Shown: in pieces, positions 15,701 to 23,080 of the stretch
How the letters are laid out: each line of letters begins with the position of its first letter
How positions within the stretch are numbered: the stretch's first letter is position 1
IMG/VR virus record: IMGVR_UViG_3300011008_000071
Span: 1-64,000 of that record
Length of the DNA stretch: 64,000 nucleotides
Direction: 5' to 3' (one strand)
From: a virus
Taxonomy: Duplodnaviria; Caudoviricetes
Program-made: the position numbers and the translations under genes
The notes under the pieces: model-generated
Told to the model about the DNA's origin: nothing
What the model saw: only the letters and a program-made list of their open reading frames with translations
Database searches by the model: none

Positions 15701-18520
15701 GCTAAACGATCCTATGATCCTTCCTCTGTAGGTAAGCTAGCAATATCAACATCAGCCGATGCAGGGGTTGGCGTCACGAAACAATTGGCAACCGAACCTG
15801 ATATACAAAATGCTAGAGGATTCAGAAGTCCTTTACCTGATGAAGATCAAAAGGAAGAAAGAGCTGCTGCTCTTGCTGAATTGAAAGATGTAAATGTATT
15901 CTCTCCTACGGAGATGATTACACCTGGAACAGCAAAGCGAGACGATCCCATCAGAACCGCGATAGACCTTTAACTAAAGGTAAACATTTAGATAATCCCC
16001 CAAATATGTTAACCTGTTGTCGCGGTAAAACCACATATATGCGGGAAGTACCTTAGAGCCAGGGACACGGCGCAGGTATGGTGACATGCCTGGCAGCAGT
16101 ACGGATAACGCCGTACGGATCGTAACAACGCCCTGGATTATTATAAAATTATATGGAGGGATGTCTCATGAATGAAGAGAAGATTGCCGTGATATGGAAA
16201 CCTGTTATATTAGATGGAGAGCCAACTCAATACGAAGTCAGCGAATATGGAAATGTTAGAAATGTTAACACGGGCAATATATTAACTCCAGTTCCGCTCA
16301 AAAATAGTGGAAGACTTCGTGTACTAATATACAGAAATGGAGTTCGAAAGGATATGAAAATTCATAGACTCGTATACGAAGCATTTTATGGACCAATTCC
16401 AAAAGATATGACAGTTGACCATATTGATGAAAATATTCTTAATAACCATTACACCAATCTTAGATTATTAACCCCTTCTGAAAACATTAAATCTTTCAGA
16501 AACAACCATCCCGATTTTTTACAAACATATTCGGATGAGACGCTCGACAGCTTCTATAAAATGCTTCAAAAAGGAGTATATCATTTAGATGCTGCTATAG
16601 AATGCGGAATCAATAAATATCAGTCTTATAGTTACCTCGTTGGCAGGAGAAGACATGATTTATGGTTAAAATATCAGCCATTTGATCCTGGGGCATATAG
16701 ACGAATCAGATTTACAGAATCTGATAAAGAAGCTGCAATAGGAATGATTATGCATGGGATGAGAAGTCAAGAGATACTCAAAAAATTACATATCAAATAT
16801 GACCCATTGAGTATTGATGTTATCTATAAACTTCGTAAACAACTCGGGATTAAGGATCCGAGATATTTCGATGCTGATCTCATTTTTGATGTCGATACAT
16901 TAATCAGAGATGGAAAGACCAATGCAGAAATATATGAAATTCTTCATATTGAATTTGATGATCGGGTATCATGGATGATGGCTCGCAGAAGGAAATGGCT
17001 AGGTATCCCAAACAATAATCTCAAAAAATCAACCCCAGAAGAAATGAAAATAATCAGAGAAGGAATAGCTTCAGGGTTGAGTAATAATGAAATTCTTGAT
17101 AAGATTGGTAAAGAACGGAATCAATATTACATTGATTTATTCGGTAAAGAAAGGCAAAAATACAAGAAGAAACAAAGTTCTACCTCAGAGACTATCGAAA
17201 GCATAGTATAGGAGAAAGACCTATATGAAGAAGTGAGTAGAGTAGCGAAAGCAAAACGTGTGGCATTGTGTAATTGGTAACAGATTACACAGTGAAGATA
17301 TAGTCCGTCTGTACATGAAAGTGTATAGGTTGCTCAAATGAGCTGGTAAACAATCCGGCCATATAGTACCAGTAGCAGACGCCGTTCCATCACTGGTATC
17401 AAATGGCTTTGATGAAGCAATTCAATTCCAACTCTCTGATGACTTCGTTGTCAATGCCGAAGAAGATGGAAAGGTAATTGATGTCAACGAGGAGCTGGGA
17501 TTCATTGTCGTTGAATATGCATCTGGAAAGCATAAGGCAATATCAACCAAGCCGGAAGTTGTCAAGAACTCCGGAGCAGGTTTCTATCTGTCGAATGCTC
17601 TGGTGCCAACACATACCAAGGTTGGAGAGAAGTTCGTCAAGGATGAACCTCTTGCATATCATCCGAAGTACTTTAAGTATTCCAAGCTGAATGGTCTTCG
17701 ATTCTCCATAGGCCCATTATGCAAGATGGCATTCATGTCTTCATATAACACATATGAAGATGCCGGCATCTGCACTGAATCTCTATCATCCAGAATGAAG
17801 ACATCGATTGTATATATGGAATCTGGCAGATTTAAGAAGAATAATAATATTCTTTCGATGGTCAAGGTCGGAGACCATGTATCGATTGGAGATGCTCTGA
17901 TCAAGTTCGATGTTTCTTCGGAGGATAATGAACTTGCAAAGTTCTTCAACAAGCTTAATGAAGAAGACAGGGCAATGTTGGAAGATGAGGTCAAGGATGA
18001 AATCAAGACCATGCATGCCGGAAGAATAATCGATATCAAAGTATACACGATTCTTCCCCCAGAAGCATTGTCTCCTTCTCTGGGCAAGATCGTGAGGGAG
18101 TTCTGGAATACAGCAAATGCTAAGAAGGATTTCCTCAACCAGTATGATTCTGAGAATAATACTCTGAAAGCTGGGTATTTGCTTACGGATGAAACGGAGC
18201 CTGTCAAGGAAGAATATAACACCATCAAAGGCCAAAAGGGTGTAGATGTTCTGATTGAGATTTACATTGAGCATGATGATGTTATGGGCGTAGGAGATAA
18301 GATTGCACTGTACGGGCCTAACAAGCAGATCATATCCCAGGTAATTCCTAAGGGGTATGAACCGTATTCGGAATTCCGTCCTGATGAAGAAATCTCTGTG
18401 CTGTGTTCTCCTGGAACGGTTGCCAGACGAATGGTTTCTTCTACACTGGTAATCTCGGCTGCAATGAAACTCTGTGTTGAGCTCAAAAGAAAAATCAACG
18501 ATACAATCAAATACAAATAA
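12734..18520 (+). CDS. Multisubunit RNA polymerase beta subunit, large virion-RNAP type (phiKZ gp178-like); exons 12734-15963 and 17341-18520, ~1469 aa
   Basis: INGTKY, KGYRG, R.YD.S..G, GVTKQL, spliced junction DDPIRTAI|AGKQSGH, TYEDA and GDKI...NKQIIS. Splicing restores the frame. AGGAG RBS before the ATG at 12734. Confidence 0.9.
15964..17340 (+). mobile_element. Group I intron in the RNAP beta gene, with HNH endonuclease
   Basis: P1 ACCGCGAU/GUCGCGGU, P7 elements cagagactat and gaagatatagtc, terminal G at 17340. Confidence 0.9.
16168..17211 (+). CDS. Intron-encoded NUMOD4/HNH homing endonuclease
   Basis: YEVSEYGNVRN, IHRLVYEAF, VDHIDENILNN; its 3' end overlaps the intron core. Confidence 0.9.
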   Translation: MNEEKIAVIWKPVILDGEPTQYEVSEYGNVRNVNTGNILTPVPLKNSGRLRVLIYRNGVRKDMKIHRLVYEAFYGPIPKDMTVDHIDENILNNHYTNLRLLTPSENIKSFRNNHPDFLQTYSDETLDSFYKMLQKGVYHLDAAIECGINKYQSYSYLVGRRRHDLWLKYQPFDPGAYRRIRFTESDKEAAIGMIMHGMRSQEILKKLHIKYDPLSIDVIYKLRKQLGIKDPRYFDADLIFDVDTLIRDGKTNAEIYEILHIEFDDRVSWMMARRRKWLGIPNNNLKKSTPEEMKIIREGIASGLSNNEILDKIGKERNQYYIDLFGKERQKYKKKQSSTSETIESIV

Positions 18521-20041: not shown

Positions 20042-20129
20042 TGGTGCAGGTAACCGGAGTTGAACCGGTATGGTATTTCTACCAATGGTTTTTAAGACCA
20101 TTGCGTGCTGCCAGTTTCGCCATACCTGC
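20042..20129 (-). tRNA. tRNA-Leu(UAA)
   Basis: Acceptor stem GCAGGTA/TACCTGC with encoded CCA; anticodon arm ATGGT-CTTAAAA-ACCAT; long variable arm; T-loop TTCAACT. Confidence 0.95.
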
Positions 20130-20197: not shown

Positions 20198-21853
20198 TTA
20201 ACTCTGGTTGCAGTTGTTGCAATCAAAGTTACAACCGGGCTTATCTACGAAGCCGCCTTTCATGGCATCTGCTACAACAGCGTACCGAGCATCCATGAGC
20301 TGATCTTTAAGAATCTCATATGGATCAAGCTTATCGCTCATGACCATCTTAACGATGTTAGGACTGAAGCCGGATACCAGTGCGAAACCGTACTTATTCG
20401 TACACACAGGAATGGTCATGGACCTACTGTTTACATTCCAGAATACGAGTTTCGGTAAATGGTATCCATGTAGTTCATAACAGTCAGTAATGTATTCGAA
20501 CAGTGTCTGATCACTACCTTGGACTTTGGAATCCAAGTTCTCATTCGCATCATATCTCATATCTGACGCATAATCAAACTCCATGTCAGATATGATCAGA
20601 ATACGCTTGGGGAGATCTTCCTGGGTGAGCTTGTTATTAACGGCCGTCTCGAGTATCAGCTGGAATACCCTGTATATATTCGTATTCGCTGCTTCAGCAT
20701 AAAAGTCTAGAACTTTCATCTTATCGAGCAGAGTCATCTCCGGTTTGAACTGAACAAGTCTGGGATTCGCCGAGAAGGTGATAAACGAGTTCGCGAATGG
20801 TCCAGACATTCTCTCAGAGAAGTACACAGCCATGGACTCCGACACGTCAAGTGCTCTTACTCGGCTATTACCGATTTTACAGTCCATAGAACCGGAAGAA
20901 TCACACACAACCAACGTCTGCATATCCTGACCCTGAACGACATCAGGCAACGCCTTCCACATGGTTTCCATTTGAACTGTGATGTTATGGTCTTTCTCCA
21001 TGGAATAGTCATACGAGAAATTACTCCTGAGATCATAGTAAATCTCATAAGGATACACTGTGGAAGCATTGATCTTAGCTTCACCTCTGGAAACAGATTC
21101 CAGATACTGAACACGTCTGTCATGATCGTGTTTGAGGAATGCATGCTTGTATCTGAGATTCGCCTTCGAGGGAACATTAGGGTATTTGATTTCACCCCAC
21201 CTGCCGGGCTTAGTCTTCCTCTCAGTGACATCAATGTAGCTCCTCAGACCAGAAAGCATCTTCTGATATTCAGTCGGCTTCAGATGCATCGCCTTGCGAA
21301 TCTTGTTTGCCTTCCTCCTACTGGAGAGACCAGCATTGATTGAAGGAACCCACTTTACGCACACCGATATCGGCTGCATTGCTGCGGCATTCTGTATATC
21401 CTTATTAAGCTGGGTAATGATACAGGAAATAGCAAATCCTTCAAGCGGTGTATCGAAGAGTGCAAGAAGATCATCCCATCTGCCGAAGAAAGGAACCAGC
21501 GGACCGTTCTGTAGTGTGAACGATGTTCTGGATGTAATGATGTTCGCAATTACAGCCGGATGGTTATTCGCCATATACTTCAGAATCACTCTGAACACAC
21601 GTCTCTCACCCAGACCGCCACGAACGTCACGGATATAGAACAGCCATCTTATTGCCAACTCTTCATTCTCGAAATATGCCGGTATCCACTTCTCGACGAT
21701 GTCTTCATCAGACCAATGACGCATAGAAGATAGTGCAAAATTGAGATCAACCAAAGCTTTCCCGGATGTCTTGTAGCCAAGAGCTCCGTTCTCAGTCGTT
21801 GACAGTATAGACTGATCTGTTTCCTTCTTCAGCATTTCGACAAAGTCATTCAT
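20198..21853 (-). CDS. DUF2828-family / TROVE(Ro60)-like protein with C-terminal vWA domain
   Basis: N-terminal TENGA, RDVRGGLGER, GRWDDL; MIDAS-type DSSGSM, ISDMEFD, FWNV and SGFS. Confidence 0.85.
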   Translation of the reverse strand: MNDFVEMLKKETDQSILSTTENGALGYKTSGKALVDLNFALSSMRHWSDEDIVEKWIPAYFENEELAIRWLFYIRDVRGGLGERRVFRVILKYMANNHPAVIANIITSRTSFTLQNGPLVPFFGRWDDLLALFDTPLEGFAISCIITQLNKDIQNAAAMQPISVCVKWVPSINAGLSSRRKANKIRKAMHLKPTEYQKMLSGLRSYIDVTERKTKPGRWGEIKYPNVPSKANLRYKHAFLKHDHDRRVQYLESVSRGEAKINASTVYPYEIYYDLRSNFSYDYSMEKDHNITVQMETMWKALPDVVQGQDMQTLVVCDSSGSMDCKIGNSRVRALDVSESMAVYFSERMSGPFANSFITFSANPRLVQFKPEMTLLDKMKVLDFYAEAANTNIYRVFQLILETAVNNKLTQEDLPKRILIISDMEFDYASDMRYDANENLDSKVQGSDQTLFEYITDCYELHGYHLPKLVFWNVNSRSMTIPVCTNKYGFALVSGFSPNIVKMVMSDKLDPYEILKDQLMDARYAVVADAMKGGFVDKPGCNFDCNNCNQS

Positions 21854-21897
21854 TTGTAATTCCTCCTATATATGTAATACTGTAATTTGACAACAAT

Positions 21898-21922
21898 AAG
21901 GGAGAGGTCTGACCTCTCCCTT
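21898..21922. terminator. Hairpin between the ncRNA array and the vWA gene
   Basis: aagggagaggtc-t-gacctctccctt. Confidence 0.65.
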
Positions 21923-21928
21923 AGGTTG

Positions 21929-22116
21929 TGAACGCTCAAGATCCGTTTGTATTAACCCATACATCCCGCGGGCTTTGTGTTAAACTACACATCAGGAAAG
22001 TCGCCTTAACGGCAAGCACCCCGCCAATCTCGGCAAGTATATGTGCCGAGGGCACGGGCAGCTTAAATCCTCATTAAGTTTTGAAGAAGATTGCTGAATT
22101 TGATCTTATGCGTTCA
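21929..22116 (-). ncRNA. Structured ncRNA unit A (same scaffold as B and C, with a ~130-nt multi-hairpin insert)
   Basis: TGAACGC-AT-AAGATC-AAATTCAGCAA...GATCTT-GA-GCGTTCA. Confidence 0.6.
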
Positions 22117-22118
22117 AT

Positions 22119-22189
22119 TTCCGCTCTAGAGTCAATCTTGTTCATTTAACAGATGAATGCATAAATTGCGGTTAGACTCTAATACGGAA
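22119..22189 (-). ncRNA. Structured ncRNA unit B with a tRNA-Asn-like anticodon hairpin
   Basis: TTCCGT-AT-TAGAGTC-TAACCGCAA...TTCAT-CTGTTAA-ATGAA...GACTCTA-GA-GCGGAA. Confidence 0.65.
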
Positions 22190-22191
22190 TA

Positions 22192-22263
22192 ATGTACTCA
22201 AGAATCATATCATGCCCAAGGCTATTAACCTAGATTGGATTGCGGTTAGATTCTTATGTACAT
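22192..22263 (-). ncRNA. Structured ncRNA unit C
   Basis: ATGTAC-AT-AAGAATC-TAACCGCAA...GATTCTT-GA-GTACAT. Confidence 0.65.
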
Positions 22264-22428
22264 GGAATGCAATCAGCGTCAGTGTTGCCCAGGGATTTTA
22301 GGGCGATTCGGCGCCATAGCCATATCCCGCAAGATCGGCCCTACGGCGCTATATACTCATGATCAAGGAGTTTCGTGGCAAGACACTTACTTTTACATGG
22401 AAAACCCAAACACACCCTTTTGCATTCA
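22264..22428 (-). ncRNA. Putative structured ncRNA D, first element after the promoter
   Basis: Closing stem GAATGCAA/TTGCATTC, internal stems AGTGT/ACACT and GCGCCGTAG/CTATGGCGC; starts just after TATATATTAT (22434-22443). Confidence 0.45.
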
Positions 22429-22433
22429 CTATT

Positions 22434-22443
22434 ATAATATATA
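22434..22443 (-). promoter_or_regulatory. TATATATTAT promoter-like motif heading the ncRNA array
   Basis: One of at least 11 intergenic copies, each oriented toward a downstream gene or RNA. Confidence 0.65.
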
Positions 22444-22513
22444 TGTGAAAATTTAACTTTTTATTTATTGATTCCACACCCTTATAATTTATCACCTGGA
22501 AGGAGTAATCATT

Positions 22514-23080
22514 ATGAAATTAAATACAGCAATCAAAGAATTCATGGAGAAGTATGATTCGGAAGCAATGGCTTCTATCGATAATATCGCAACTAAGGTT
22601 GGGCCGCTTGTTGCTACTAAGCCACTGGTTGTATTCAATCTTAAAGAATCCTGTGATCAGTTCACCGAATATCTTCGTGGCTACGCTCAGTATATGAAGG
22701 CTAACAAAGATAATCCAAAGCGGACATCCCGCGAAGGAATACATGCTTCCGTAAACAAATTCATGGAAGAGACTTTGTTCAAAGAGTCCAAGATTCAGTA
22801 CAAGGATATTCCGGCATTTGTGAAGTCGTATCTGGAGTCGGTCAAGGCCATGGAAGACGAAGTTACACATCTCAAAGAAGATATGGAACTCAACGATGTC
22901 TCGCTGGAGGAAGTTGGAGATCTTTCGGAATATGCGGATATATTCATTGGAAAGCTCAATGAATCTCTATCACCTATCATGGAAAATATTCTATGGGCAT
23001 CTGGGTATGCCGGTTCTCATGGTTATAAAACACCTCTGCAAACACAACTCGCTTCTGCTCATAAAGTTTCCTTTCTTTAA
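22514..23080 (+). CDS. Hypothetical protein
   Basis: 188-aa ORF with AGGAG RBS. Confidence 0.7.
   Translation: MKLNTAIKEFMEKYDSEAMASIDNIATKVGPLVATKPLVVFNLKESCDQFTEYLRGYAQYMKANKDNPKRTSREGIHASVNKFMEETLFKESKIQYKDIPAFVKSYLESVKAMEDEVTHLKEDMELNDVSLEEVGDLSEYADIFIGKLNESLSPIMENILWASGYAGSHGYKTPLQTQLASAHKVSFL

What the first reader, a model, noticed from the sequence alone, without database searches (positions are those of the whole stretch)
22141..22157. tRNA anticodon-arm mimic carried as cargo in unit B
Seen: minus-strand TTCAT-CTGTTAA-ATGAA is a perfect 5-bp stem with the 7-nt loop CU-GUU-AA, the canonical tRNA-Asn anticodon loop, but it has no D or T arm around it. Unit C has a weaker hairpin with the 7-nt loop UUAAUAG in the same slot. 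Inference: these could be decoys for host anticodon nucleases or tRNA-sensing defences, or substrates in an RNA-repair system.
Basis: partly seen in the sequence, partly recalled or inferred. Interest (0 to 1): 0.7.

Follow-up and report, generated by a model that had tools for sequence, protein, structure and literature searches.

The report
Anticodon-arm mimic on Ro-like partner RNA
The hairpin is real: it fills the slot that holds a tRNA anticodon arm, or a whole rearranged tRNA, in a widespread and apparently undescribed family of small phage RNAs encoded beside a Ro60-like protein, so it most likely imitates tRNA-Asn in a phage-host fight over tRNAs.

Summary
Minus-strand 22157->22141 is a perfect 5-bp stem with the loop CUGUUAA. 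Alone it is not beyond chance: the window holds 11 comparable hairpins. Its context is what matters.

It lies inside a 71-nt unit (22189->22119) made of a closing stem, the motif ACCGCAA, a spacer, the hairpin and an A-rich tail. The unit sits upstream of a 551-aa gene whose predicted fold matches Ro60/TROVE, on the same strand.

A covariance model built only from other phages finds exactly two hits in the 64-kb window, units B and C. It aligns this hairpin to the model's hairpin.

In 107 loci that carry a homologous Ro-like gene, the model finds 236 units, all on the gene's strand. A scan blind to loop sequence gives these results for hairpins in this slot:
- 33% have YU-NNN-R loops, against 8.6% of control hairpins (p 2e-20).
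- 14% have CUNNUAA loops, against 0.16% of controls (p 3e-41).

In some loci the slot holds a complete circularly permuted tRNA.

So the tRNA-mimic reading is supported. The proposed function (decoy, sensor or repair substrate) is untested. Context fits it: RtcB directly follows the Ro-like gene in 33 of 192 loci and is encoded elsewhere in this phage.

Earlier notes of this scan describe the same RNA-protein pairing on other DNA. I found no paper or Rfam family that describes it.

The parts
22141..22157 (-). The finding: 5-bp stem and 7-nt loop CUGUUAA, the anticodon-arm (tRNA-Asn GUU-like) module of unit B
   Evidence: Sequence read. Aligned to the hairpin of model R1. Loop invariant in three close relatives from other metagenomes, with one stem change (C22155 to U) that keeps a G.U pair.
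22119..22189 (-). Unit B, a 71-nt handle RNA: outer stem, A.A/U.G internal loop, inner 7-bp stem, linker UA, motif, spacer, hairpin, tail, 3' arm
   Evidence: Inverted repeat I6. Fold z -4.25. R1 hit at 22181->22127, 26.9 bits, E 2.9e-4.
22166..22172 (-). Motif ACCGCAA of unit B, a variant of the family's ACAGCAA
   Evidence: 119 of 134 unit clusters have ACAGCAA; ACCGCAA occurs only in the two window units.
22192..22263 (-). Unit C, a 72-nt handle RNA with the same scaffold, motif ACCGCAA (22246->22240) and a weaker hairpin with loop UUAAUAG (22233->22217)
   Evidence: Inverted repeat I4. R1 hit at 22255->22200, 17.3 bits, E 0.079. Fold z -2.9. Its cargo is remodelled in one relative.
21929..22116 (-). 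Unit A, 188 nt: same closing-stem design, motif UCAGCAA (22097->22091), and a 150-nt structured cargo of unknown kind
   Evidence: Inverted repeat I3. Picked up by the descriptor scan. Fold z -4.5. Not hit by R1, whose seed units all have short cargos.
21897..21923 (-). Terminator-like hairpin with a U-rich tail, between the RNA array and the gene
20198..21853 (-). 551-aa Ro60-like protein (DUF2828 + DUF7788, vWA with MIDAS motif DxSxS), presumed partner of the units
   Evidence: Pfam and PHROG hits. AlphaFold2 model, pLDDT 85. The top 13 Foldseek hits (ranks 1-13 shown) are all Ro60/TROVE/Rsr entries, aligned over about 530-600 columns. Invariant D318/S320/S322.
20042..20129 (-). tRNA-Leu(UAA), the only ordinary tRNA in the 118.7-kb record, directly downstream of the Ro-like gene

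Best explanation
Unit B is a small non-coding RNA of about 71 nt. It belongs to a family that plays for a DUF2828-type Ro60 homolog the role that Y RNAs play for Ro60.

Its 5' and 3' ends pair into a closing stem. Together with the adjacent single-stranded motif (ACCGCAA here, ACAGCAA in most relatives), this stem forms a conserved handle that is presumably bound by the Ro-like ring protein encoded just downstream.

The rest of the RNA is an exchangeable module. In unit B that module is a stand-alone copy of a tRNA anticodon stem-loop with the Asn (GUU) loop. It has no acceptor, D or T arm, so it cannot be charged or used in translation.

The particle would therefore display an anticodon arm to proteins that read anticodon loops. 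Most likely these are anticodon nucleases or other tRNA-targeting factors, in a conflict whose damage RtcB repairs.

What is shown: family membership, the slot, covariation, loop enrichment, and the Ro60-like fold of the neighbouring protein. What is inferred: binding of the handle by the protein, expression as a discrete RNA, and any decoy, sensor or tether role.
For: 1. Model R1 was built from 15 units of other phages. It finds only units B and C in 64 kb, and the hairpin aligns to the model's hairpin.
2. In 107 Ro-like loci there are 236 hits, all on the gene's strand. 95 of 107 loci have at least one hit; 185 lie upstream, 41 downstream and 0 inside the gene, with a median distance of 238 nt.
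3. 365 kb of unrelated viral contigs give one weak hit.
4. Both helices covary: 92% of cells are paired, 13 of 13 pairs change on both sides, and slid controls give 35-52%. Frequent G.U pairs fix the strand.
5. A loop-blind scan gives YU-NNN-R loops in 60 of 181 unit clusters against 8.6% of 87,965 control hairpins, and CUNNUAA in 26 of 181 against 0.16%.
6. ARAGORN calls tRNA-Ile, Thr, Gln and Leu on un-permuted cargos from other loci.
7. tRNAs of 110-127 nt carry the handle between the D arm and the anticodon arm.
8. The GUU loop recurs on different stems: window B, L006:2863-2921 and L008:2699-2759.
9. The unit B loop is invariant in three natural relatives.
10. The protein's fold matches Ro60/TROVE.
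11. RtcB lies directly downstream of the Ro-like gene in 33 of 192 loci, and is encoded in this phage at 97,364-98,569 of the record.
Against: - No RNA data: expression, ends and processing of unit B are unknown.
- No binding data for the protein and the handle.
- The window's motif differs from the family consensus at one base. Unit C scores only E 0.079.
- Unit B's 3' stem starts with A39, not the U39 common in the family.
- The RNAfold minimum-energy structure draws the hairpin slightly differently, with an extended stem and a 5-nt loop.
- The model-aligned loop counts lean towards the seed's loop. Only the descriptor scan is loop-blind.
- Unit clusters are not phylogenetically independent.
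Confidence: 0.65

Rival explanations
1. Specific decoy or sponge. The displayed anticodon arm is cleaved or bound by a host anticodon nuclease in place of host tRNA-Asn, and so protects translation during infection. The Ro-like protein stabilises or concentrates the bait.
For: - The mimicked anticodons in the family are dominated by Lys UUU, with Asn GUU, Thr and Ile. PARIS AriB cleaves tRNA-Lys(UUU), Thr(UGU) and Asn(GUU), and its major and minor targets share a UAAU sequence near the cleavage site (PMC12409363). U36-A37-A38-U39 is the commonest arrangement in the units.
- Lys UUU makes up 15 of 52 unit loops but only 8 of 263 ordinary tRNAs in the same loci.
- The units cannot be aminoacylated.
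Against: - Nothing here shows cleavage or binding.
- Ser UGA, Cys GCA and Pro UGG loops are also common.
- Stoichiometric sponging of a catalytic nuclease is inefficient.
- The host and its defence systems are unknown.
- Unit B has A39, not U39.
Confidence: 0.25
2. Repair scaffold. As a Y RNA tethers Ro60 to PNPase, the handle RNA tethers the Ro-like ring to a tRNA-handling enzyme such as RtcB or a modification enzyme. Alternatively it is itself a template-like platform for resealing cleaved anticodon loops.
For: - RtcB lies about 50 nt downstream of the Ro-like gene on the same strand in 33 of 192 loci, and is present in this phage.
- This parallels the Salmonella rsr-yrlBA-rtcBA operon (PMC7790460, PMC4201824).
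- A review of jumbo phages lists ROT/TROVE proteins with RNA-repair genes (PMC7824862).
Against: In this phage RtcB is 76 kb away. No evidence that RtcB recognises anticodon arms on such RNAs. Most loci show no RtcB within the fetched flanks.
Confidence: 0.2
3. Cis-acting leader. Units C, B and A are structures in the 5' untranslated region of the Ro-like gene's mRNA. They are bound by the protein for autoregulation or attenuation, and the hairpin is only a structural filler.
For: The units lie upstream on the same strand and are followed by a terminator-like hairpin before the gene. The median distance to the gene in other loci is only 238 nt.
Against: 41 of 226 units lie downstream of the gene, and many are 1-3 kb away inside tRNA arrays. 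Units are embedded in tRNAs and permuted tRNAs. Loop identity is selected.
Confidence: 0.08
4. Relic. The hairpin is a decaying leftover of a tRNA that once filled the cargo slot and has no present tRNA-related role. Only the handle matters.
For: Cargo is very variable: 62 of 134 clusters have no 7-nt loop in the slot. Unit C's cargo is partly deleted in one close relative. Unit A's cargo is unrelated.
Against: Minimal units with perfect anticodon-like loops recur on unrelated stems in distant phages. CUNNUAA is enriched about 100-fold. The unit B loop is unchanged in three relatives, and its one stem change preserves pairing.
Confidence: 0.12

Closest known systems
Ro60/Rsr with Y RNAs, especially bacterial and phage YrlA (Chen et al. 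2014, PMC4201824; Thermus phage phiLo Ro60 with Yrl1/Yrl2, PMC12135203)
   Same: - Small RNAs whose 5' and 3' ends form a long stem with a conserved motif on the 5' strand.
- They are encoded directly beside a ring-shaped HEAT + vWA protein, and several are placed upstream of the gene, as in phiLo.
- The variable module imitates tRNA.
- Linked to RtcB in some genomes.
   Different: - The protein matches Pfam DUF2828/DUF7788, not TROVE. Its likeness to Ro60 is seen only at fold level (TM about 0.5).
- The motif is ACAGCAA/ACCGCAA, not GNCGAA.
- No Rfam Y RNA or YrlA hit at E<=10.
- YrlA mimics the T, D and acceptor parts, and the Y stem takes the place of the anticodon stem. Here the anticodon arm itself is displayed, alone.
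Dictyostelium Class I RNAs (Rfam RF01414; Kjellin et al. 2021, PMC7919456; pattern in PMC5054030)
   Same: RNAs of about 60 nt with a short stem joining the ends, an adjacent conserved motif that ends in ACAGCAA, and a variable remainder. Canonical units of phage locus L022 score 23-25 bits against RF01414 over the full model.
   Different: Those scores are below the gathering score of 41.5. The window's own units give no hit. Class I RNAs are eukaryotic, are reported as unique to dictyostelids, and their known binder is an RRM protein (Rnp1A). No tRNA-like cargo is described for them.
Phage-encoded tRNAs that bypass tRNA-targeting defences (T5 tRNA-Lys, Thr and Asn against PARIS; PMC11464382, PMC12409363)
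   Same: Phage-borne RNAs with Lys, Thr or Asn anticodon arms, in a setting of tRNA cleavage.
   Different: Those are complete, chargeable tRNAs that replace cleaved host tRNAs. Unit B has only the anticodon arm on a protein-binding handle and cannot act in translation.
Circularly permuted tRNA genes (known from red and green algae and some archaea; from my own knowledge, not checked here)
   Same: Relatives of unit B carry cargos with the order anticodon arm, T arm, closed acceptor stem, D arm.
   Different: In those organisms the permuted genes are processed into normal tRNAs. Here the acceptor stem is capped by a loop and the break lies between the D arm and the anticodon arm, joined to the handle. 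The window's unit B has no tRNA body at all.

Membership tests
Handle RNAs beside DUF2828 Ro-like genes (undescribed family, defined here by model R1) | Closing stem of 7-9 bp that joins the 5' and 3' ends | tested here: met
   The inner stems UAGAGUC/GACUCUA (unit B) and AAGAAUC/GAUUCUU (unit C) align to the model stem. The stem covaries across the family.
Handle RNAs beside DUF2828 Ro-like genes (undescribed family, defined here by model R1) | Motif ACAGCAA placed 0-3 nt after the 5' arm | tested here: inconclusive
   Position and 6 of 7 bases match, but the third base is C (ACCGCAA) in B and C, and A has UCAGCAA. This variant was seen in no other locus.
Handle RNAs beside DUF2828 Ro-like genes (undescribed family, defined here by model R1) | Significant score against a model built without the candidate | tested here: met
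   Unit B scores 26.9 bits, E 2.9e-4. Unit C scores 17.3 bits, E 0.079, which is borderline. There are no other hits in the window.
Handle RNAs beside DUF2828 Ro-like genes (undescribed family, defined here by model R1) | Same strand as, and close to, a DUF2828 gene | tested here: met
   The units lie 76-410 nt upstream of the gene at 20198-21853 on the minus strand. In the family, 236 of 236 hits are co-oriented with the gene.
tRNA | Cloverleaf with acceptor, D, anticodon and T arms | tested here: not met
   No ARAGORN or Rfam tRNA hit on 22119-22263. Unit B has room only for the anticodon arm.
tRNA anticodon stem-loop (as a mimic) | 5-bp stem and 7-nt loop with Y32, U33, R37 | tested here: met
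   UUCAU-CUGUUAA-AUGAA. The same slot holds true anticodon arms in permuted tRNAs.
tRNA anticodon stem-loop (as a mimic) | Anticodon-type base modifications (Q34, t6A37) or recognition by anticodon-binding enzymes | not testable with these tools
   Needs RNA from infected cells or in vitro assays.
Y RNA / YrlA (Rfam RF00019, RF02553) | Ro-binding motif GNCGAAN0-1G or a bulged helix in the stem, and a covariance-model match | tested here: not met
   No Rfam match at E<=10 in 21700-22600. The motif differs from that given in PMC4201824.
Y RNA / YrlA (Rfam RF00019, RF02553) | Bound by the adjacent Ro60 protein | not testable with these tools
   No RNA-protein predictor or binding data available.
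Ro60/TROVE protein family (for the neighbouring gene) | HEAT-repeat ring plus C-terminal vWA domain with a MIDAS motif | tested here: met
   Foldseek hits to 9kop, 1yvp, 2i91, 9l5y and 2nvo at E 4e-9 to 3e-5 over about 530-600 aligned columns. DxSxS is invariant.
Ro60/TROVE protein family (for the neighbouring gene) | Sequence match to Pfam TROVE or to solved Ro60 proteins | tested here: not met
   Pfam gives DUF2828 + DUF7788 only. The profile search against PDB gives RO60 at E 0.58.
Dictyostelium Class I RNA (RF01414) | Score at or above the gathering score of 41.5 bits | tested here: not met
   No hit for the window units. Related phage units reach 23-25 bits.

The most novel reading that the evidence does not exclude
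Phages use a second, undescribed kind of Ro/Y-RNA particle whose RNAs carry interchangeable tRNA parts on a common handle. The minimal members, such as unit B, are purpose-built anticodon-arm baits that neutralise or sense host anticodon nucleases, and RtcB reseals the damage. The same handle would then be an ancient protein-binding module shared with the enigmatic Class I RNAs of Dictyostelium.
Probability: 0.2. Interest if true: 0.9.

Novelty: new variant of a known kind. Interest (0 to 1): 0.72.

Why it matters
Known Y RNAs imitate the elbow of tRNA (T, D and acceptor parts), and what that mimicry is for remains an open question. Here a distant Ro60 relative travels with RNAs that show the other end of tRNA, the anticodon arm. 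They come in a graded series from whole tRNAs to bare hairpins, and they prefer the anticodons that bacterial immune nucleases are known to cut.

If the particle is a bait, sensor or repair platform, it would be a new RNA-based counter-defence. It would also give a direct handle on what Ro-type rings do with tRNA-like RNAs. The family is large (over 7,900 related proteins at E <= 1e-10, hundreds of loci) and easy to test in vitro.

Tried and rejected
- blastn of the intergenic region against phage records found no match.
- The exact-pattern scan for the window's handle variant in viral contigs gave 45 single hits, none tied to a Ro-like gene. I judged them chance and used them only as background.
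- Rfam at gathering and at E<=10 gave nothing but chance-level rows on the region.
- The protein's sequence search against PDB gave nothing significant. Only the fold search worked.
- Sequencing runs: no RNA holder listed, so expression could not be examined.
- The metagenome scan gave no relative closer than 47% identity, so no orthologous unit B at intermediate distance was found.
- The weak R1 hit at 98479-98550 of the record lies inside the RtcB coding sequence and was rejected as chance.
- ACCGCAA units in the metagenome loci were all coding-sequence noise.
- Un-permuting unit A's cargo for ARAGORN produced no testable variants because the cargo is too long. Its nature stays open.
- MAFFT misaligned the 3' halves in a second seed alignment (A3), so A2 was used.
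- No sigma-70-like promoter was found in 21700-22700. This says little for a phage that encodes RNA polymerase parts.

Full report
**The observation**

The + strand at 22141-22157 reads as the reverse complement of UUCAU-CUGUUAA-AUGAA. That is a perfect 5-bp stem with a 7-nt loop built like the anticodon loop of tRNA-Asn (C32, U33, GUU, A37, A38). ARAGORN and Rfam find only one tRNA in the window, tRNA-Leu(UAA) at 20042-20129, and nothing tRNA-like at the hairpin.

By itself the hairpin is not remarkable. The window holds 252 perfect 5-bp/7-nt-loop hairpins, 11 of them with YU-NNN-RA loops, though this is the only one with CUNNUAA.

**The setting**

The hairpin lies in a 660-nt gap (21854-22513) between a minus-strand 551-aa gene and a plus-strand 188-aa gene. 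Read on the minus strand, the gap holds three back-to-back units:
- Unit C: 22263->22192
- Unit B: 22189->22119
- Unit A: 22116->21929

Each unit is closed by a 15-bp stem with an A.A/U.G interruption. In each, 2-3 nt after the 5' arm comes a motif: ACCGCAA in B and C, UCAGCAA in A. A terminator-like hairpin (21923->21897) follows, then the gene. The region folds far better than shuffled sequence (z about -5.5 overall, -4.25 for unit B).

**The neighbouring protein**

- Pfam gives DUF2828 + DUF7788, and PHROGs gives phrog_850, 'RNA-binding protein'.
- Sequence searches against solved structures give nothing significant.
- An AlphaFold2 model (pLDDT 85) has as its top 13 Foldseek hits only Ro60, TROVE and Rsr structures, aligned over about 530-600 columns. 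They include the Ro60 of Thermus phage phiLo (E 4e-9 to 3e-5, TM about 0.5).
- A DxSxS MIDAS motif is invariant in 30 relatives.

The gene therefore encodes a distant, fold-level Ro60 homolog. The family is large: 7,949 relatives at E <= 1e-10 among the candidates scored.

Known Ro60 proteins bind Y RNAs that are encoded next to them. Bacterial YrlA has a tRNA-like domain, and phiLo has two Y-like RNAs upstream of its gene (PMC4201824, PMC12135203).

**Related loci**

I fetched 38 and then 74 more viral loci that encode relatives of the protein at 25-48% identity. Next to the gene and on its strand they hold many units of the same design: a 7-9-bp closing stem (often AAGACRC or GGGACRC), 0-3 nt, ACAGCAA, a spacer, variable cargo, and the 3' arm.

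The cargo forms a graded series:
- **Whole tRNAs with the handle inserted.** In some phages, ordinary-looking tRNAs of 110-127 nt carry a capped version of the stem plus ACAGCAA between the D arm and the anticodon arm.
- **Permuted tRNAs.** In others the stem is open and the cargo is a circularly permuted tRNA: anticodon arm, T arm, acceptor stem closed by a loop, D arm. After un-permuting, ARAGORN calls tRNA-Ile(GAU) in L032:2741-2854, Thr(UGU) in L037:4773-4897 and L036:5156-5271, Gln(UUG) in L014:4813-4925 and Leu(UAA) in L018:1773-1891.
- **Anticodon arm alone.** In many units of 52-72 nt, only the anticodon arm is left.

**Is unit B a member?**

I built covariance model R1 from 15 minimal units of other phages, using no window sequence. 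It models an 8-bp closing stem, the motif, and a 5-bp hairpin with a 7-nt loop.

- In the 64-kb window, on both strands, it finds exactly two hits: unit B (26.9 bits, E 2.9e-4) and unit C (17.3 bits, E 0.079). The finding's hairpin aligns base for base to the model's hairpin.
- In the whole 118.7-kb record the only further hit is a weak one inside the RtcB coding sequence, which I reject.
- Over 107 Ro-like loci the model finds 236 units, every one on the gene's strand. 95 loci have at least one; 185 lie upstream, 41 downstream, none inside the gene; the median distance is 238 nt.
- 365 kb of unrelated viral contigs give one weak hit.
- Both helices covary: 92% of cells pair, all 13 pairs show changes on both sides, and slid controls pair at 35-52%. 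That alignment is fitted to the model, which favours it somewhat.
- G.U pairs are frequent, which together with the strand bias argues for an RNA rather than a DNA element.

The window's motif variant ACCGCAA was seen in no other locus. 119 of 134 unit clusters have ACAGCAA.

To avoid circularity I defined units only by stem plus motif. I then took the best hairpin with a 7-nt loop within 25 nt of the motif, and compared its loop with all such hairpins elsewhere in the same loci, with units and tRNAs masked.

| Loop pattern | Unit clusters (of 181) | Control hairpins (of 87,965) | Odds ratio | p |
|---|---|---|---|---|
| YU-NNN-R | 60 (33%) | 8.6% | 5.3 | 1.6e-20 |
| CUNNUAA | 26 (14%) | 0.16% | 105 | 2.7e-41 |

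These figures are; the smaller first set agrees. About one sixth of the units in this scan are expected to be noise (375 on the gene's strand against 65 on the other), so the true fractions are higher.

On the model-based alignment, 47 of 59 clusters with a well-paired 7-nt loop have Y32-U33-R37.

Among the 52 clusters in that alignment with U33 and R37, the 'anticodons' are not a random sample of the tRNA genes in the same loci:
- UUU (Lys) 15, UGA 7, GUU (Asn) 6, GAU (Ile) 6
- Then AAU, GCU, UGG, GCA and GGU

Among 263 distinct ordinary tRNAs, Lys-UUU makes up 8, while Leu-UAA (25) and Met (24) lead.

The GUU loop sits on different stems in window unit B, L006:2863-2921, L008:2699-2759 and the handle-bearing tRNA L001:2455-2569. 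The loop, not the stem, is what is kept.

**Natural variants**

Contigs from three other ruminant-gut metagenomes cover unit B at about 97-99% identity. The 7-nt loop is unchanged in all three. The one change in the hairpin (C22155 to U on the minus strand) turns a C-G pair into U.G. Changes at 22124 and 22126 fall in the internal loop of the closing stem.

Unit C's cargo, by contrast, carries an 8-nt deletion and four substitutions in one relative. That fits exchangeable cargo on a fixed handle, and a weaker constraint on unit C.

**Context of RNA repair**

The record encodes RtcB at 97,364-98,569 on the minus strand, 76 kb from the units. In 33 of 192 Ro-like loci an RtcB homolog (47-57% identical) starts about 50 nt after the Ro-like gene on the same strand. 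This recalls the Salmonella rsr-yrlBA-rtcBA operon (PMC7790460).

RtcB joins the ends that anticodon nucleases leave. The PARIS nuclease AriB cuts tRNA-Lys(UUU), Thr(UGU) and Asn(GUU), and its major and minor targets share a UAAU sequence near the cleavage site (PMC12409363). U36-A37-A38-U39 is the commonest arrangement in the units, though unit B has A39. This overlap is suggestive only.

**What it most likely is**

Unit B is a Y-RNA-like partner of the Ro-like protein. Its handle (stem plus motif) is the presumed protein-binding site. Its effector module is a bare, unchargeable copy of the tRNA-Asn anticodon arm.

My estimates:
- About 0.9 that it belongs to this RNA family and that the hairpin occupies the anticodon-arm slot.
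- About 0.7 that the loop is kept by selection as a tRNA mimic.
- About 0.7 that the protein binds the handle.
- 0.2-0.25 each for the decoy and repair-scaffold mechanisms.

Expression, binding and any activity are inferred, not shown.

**Comparison with known systems**

It works like Ro60 with YrlA, but it is not a member of that RNA family: the motif differs and no Rfam model matches. The protein is a Ro60 homolog only at fold level.

Their published search pattern is a short stem followed by a motif ending in ACAGCAA (PMC5054030). Two canonical phage units score 23-25 bits against Rfam RF01414, below its gathering score of 41.5. The window's units do not score.

Literature searches for DUF2828, for Ro60 with phage tRNA, and for anticodon decoys found no description of this RNA family.

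Earlier notes of this scan report the same handle-and-protein pairing in many other genomes. I treat those as leads, and I re-derived the points used here.

Noticed in passing
window 22264-22420, minus strand: A further GC-rich structured stretch of about 150 nt lies 5' of unit C. It has a short stem (AGUGU/ACACU) followed by GCCACGAA, which holds the CGAA core of canonical Y RNA motifs. It is conserved in close relatives, with few changes. It could be a fourth partner RNA of another type, or the array's leader.
   Followed up: partly
G000:C1:97364-98569, minus strand (outside the window): A 401-aa RtcB RNA ligase gene. Homologs sit directly downstream of the Ro-like gene in 33 of 192 other loci.
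   Followed up: partly
L026:4593-4708, L001:2455-2569, L006:2120-2250 and others: tRNA genes of 110-127 nt that pass the Rfam tRNA model but carry a capped stem plus ACAGCAA inserted between the D arm and the anticodon arm. Whether these are processed, charged or used in translation is unknown.
   Followed up: partly
L013:2686-2784: A unit whose closing stem and ACAGCAA enclose an unpermuted tRNA-Met-like sequence that ARAGORN calls at 2705-2777. This is a third arrangement of handle and tRNA.
   Followed up: no
window 21867-21888 and 22438-22459, plus strand: A direct repeat that starts TATATATGT, found at both ends of the intergenic region. It may be a phage promoter element for the two divergent genes.
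   Followed up: no
window 16153-17211 and 17603-18520: An HNH/NUMOD4 homing-endonuclease gene next to an ORF with an RNA polymerase beta-subunit domain (Rpb2_6). This suggests a split or invaded phage RNA polymerase gene.
   Followed up: no
L194 (VOFG01002751.1, contig of 1.34 Mb): A relative of the Ro-like gene lies on a contig of chromosome size, so the system is probably also present in bacteria or prophages.
   Followed up: no
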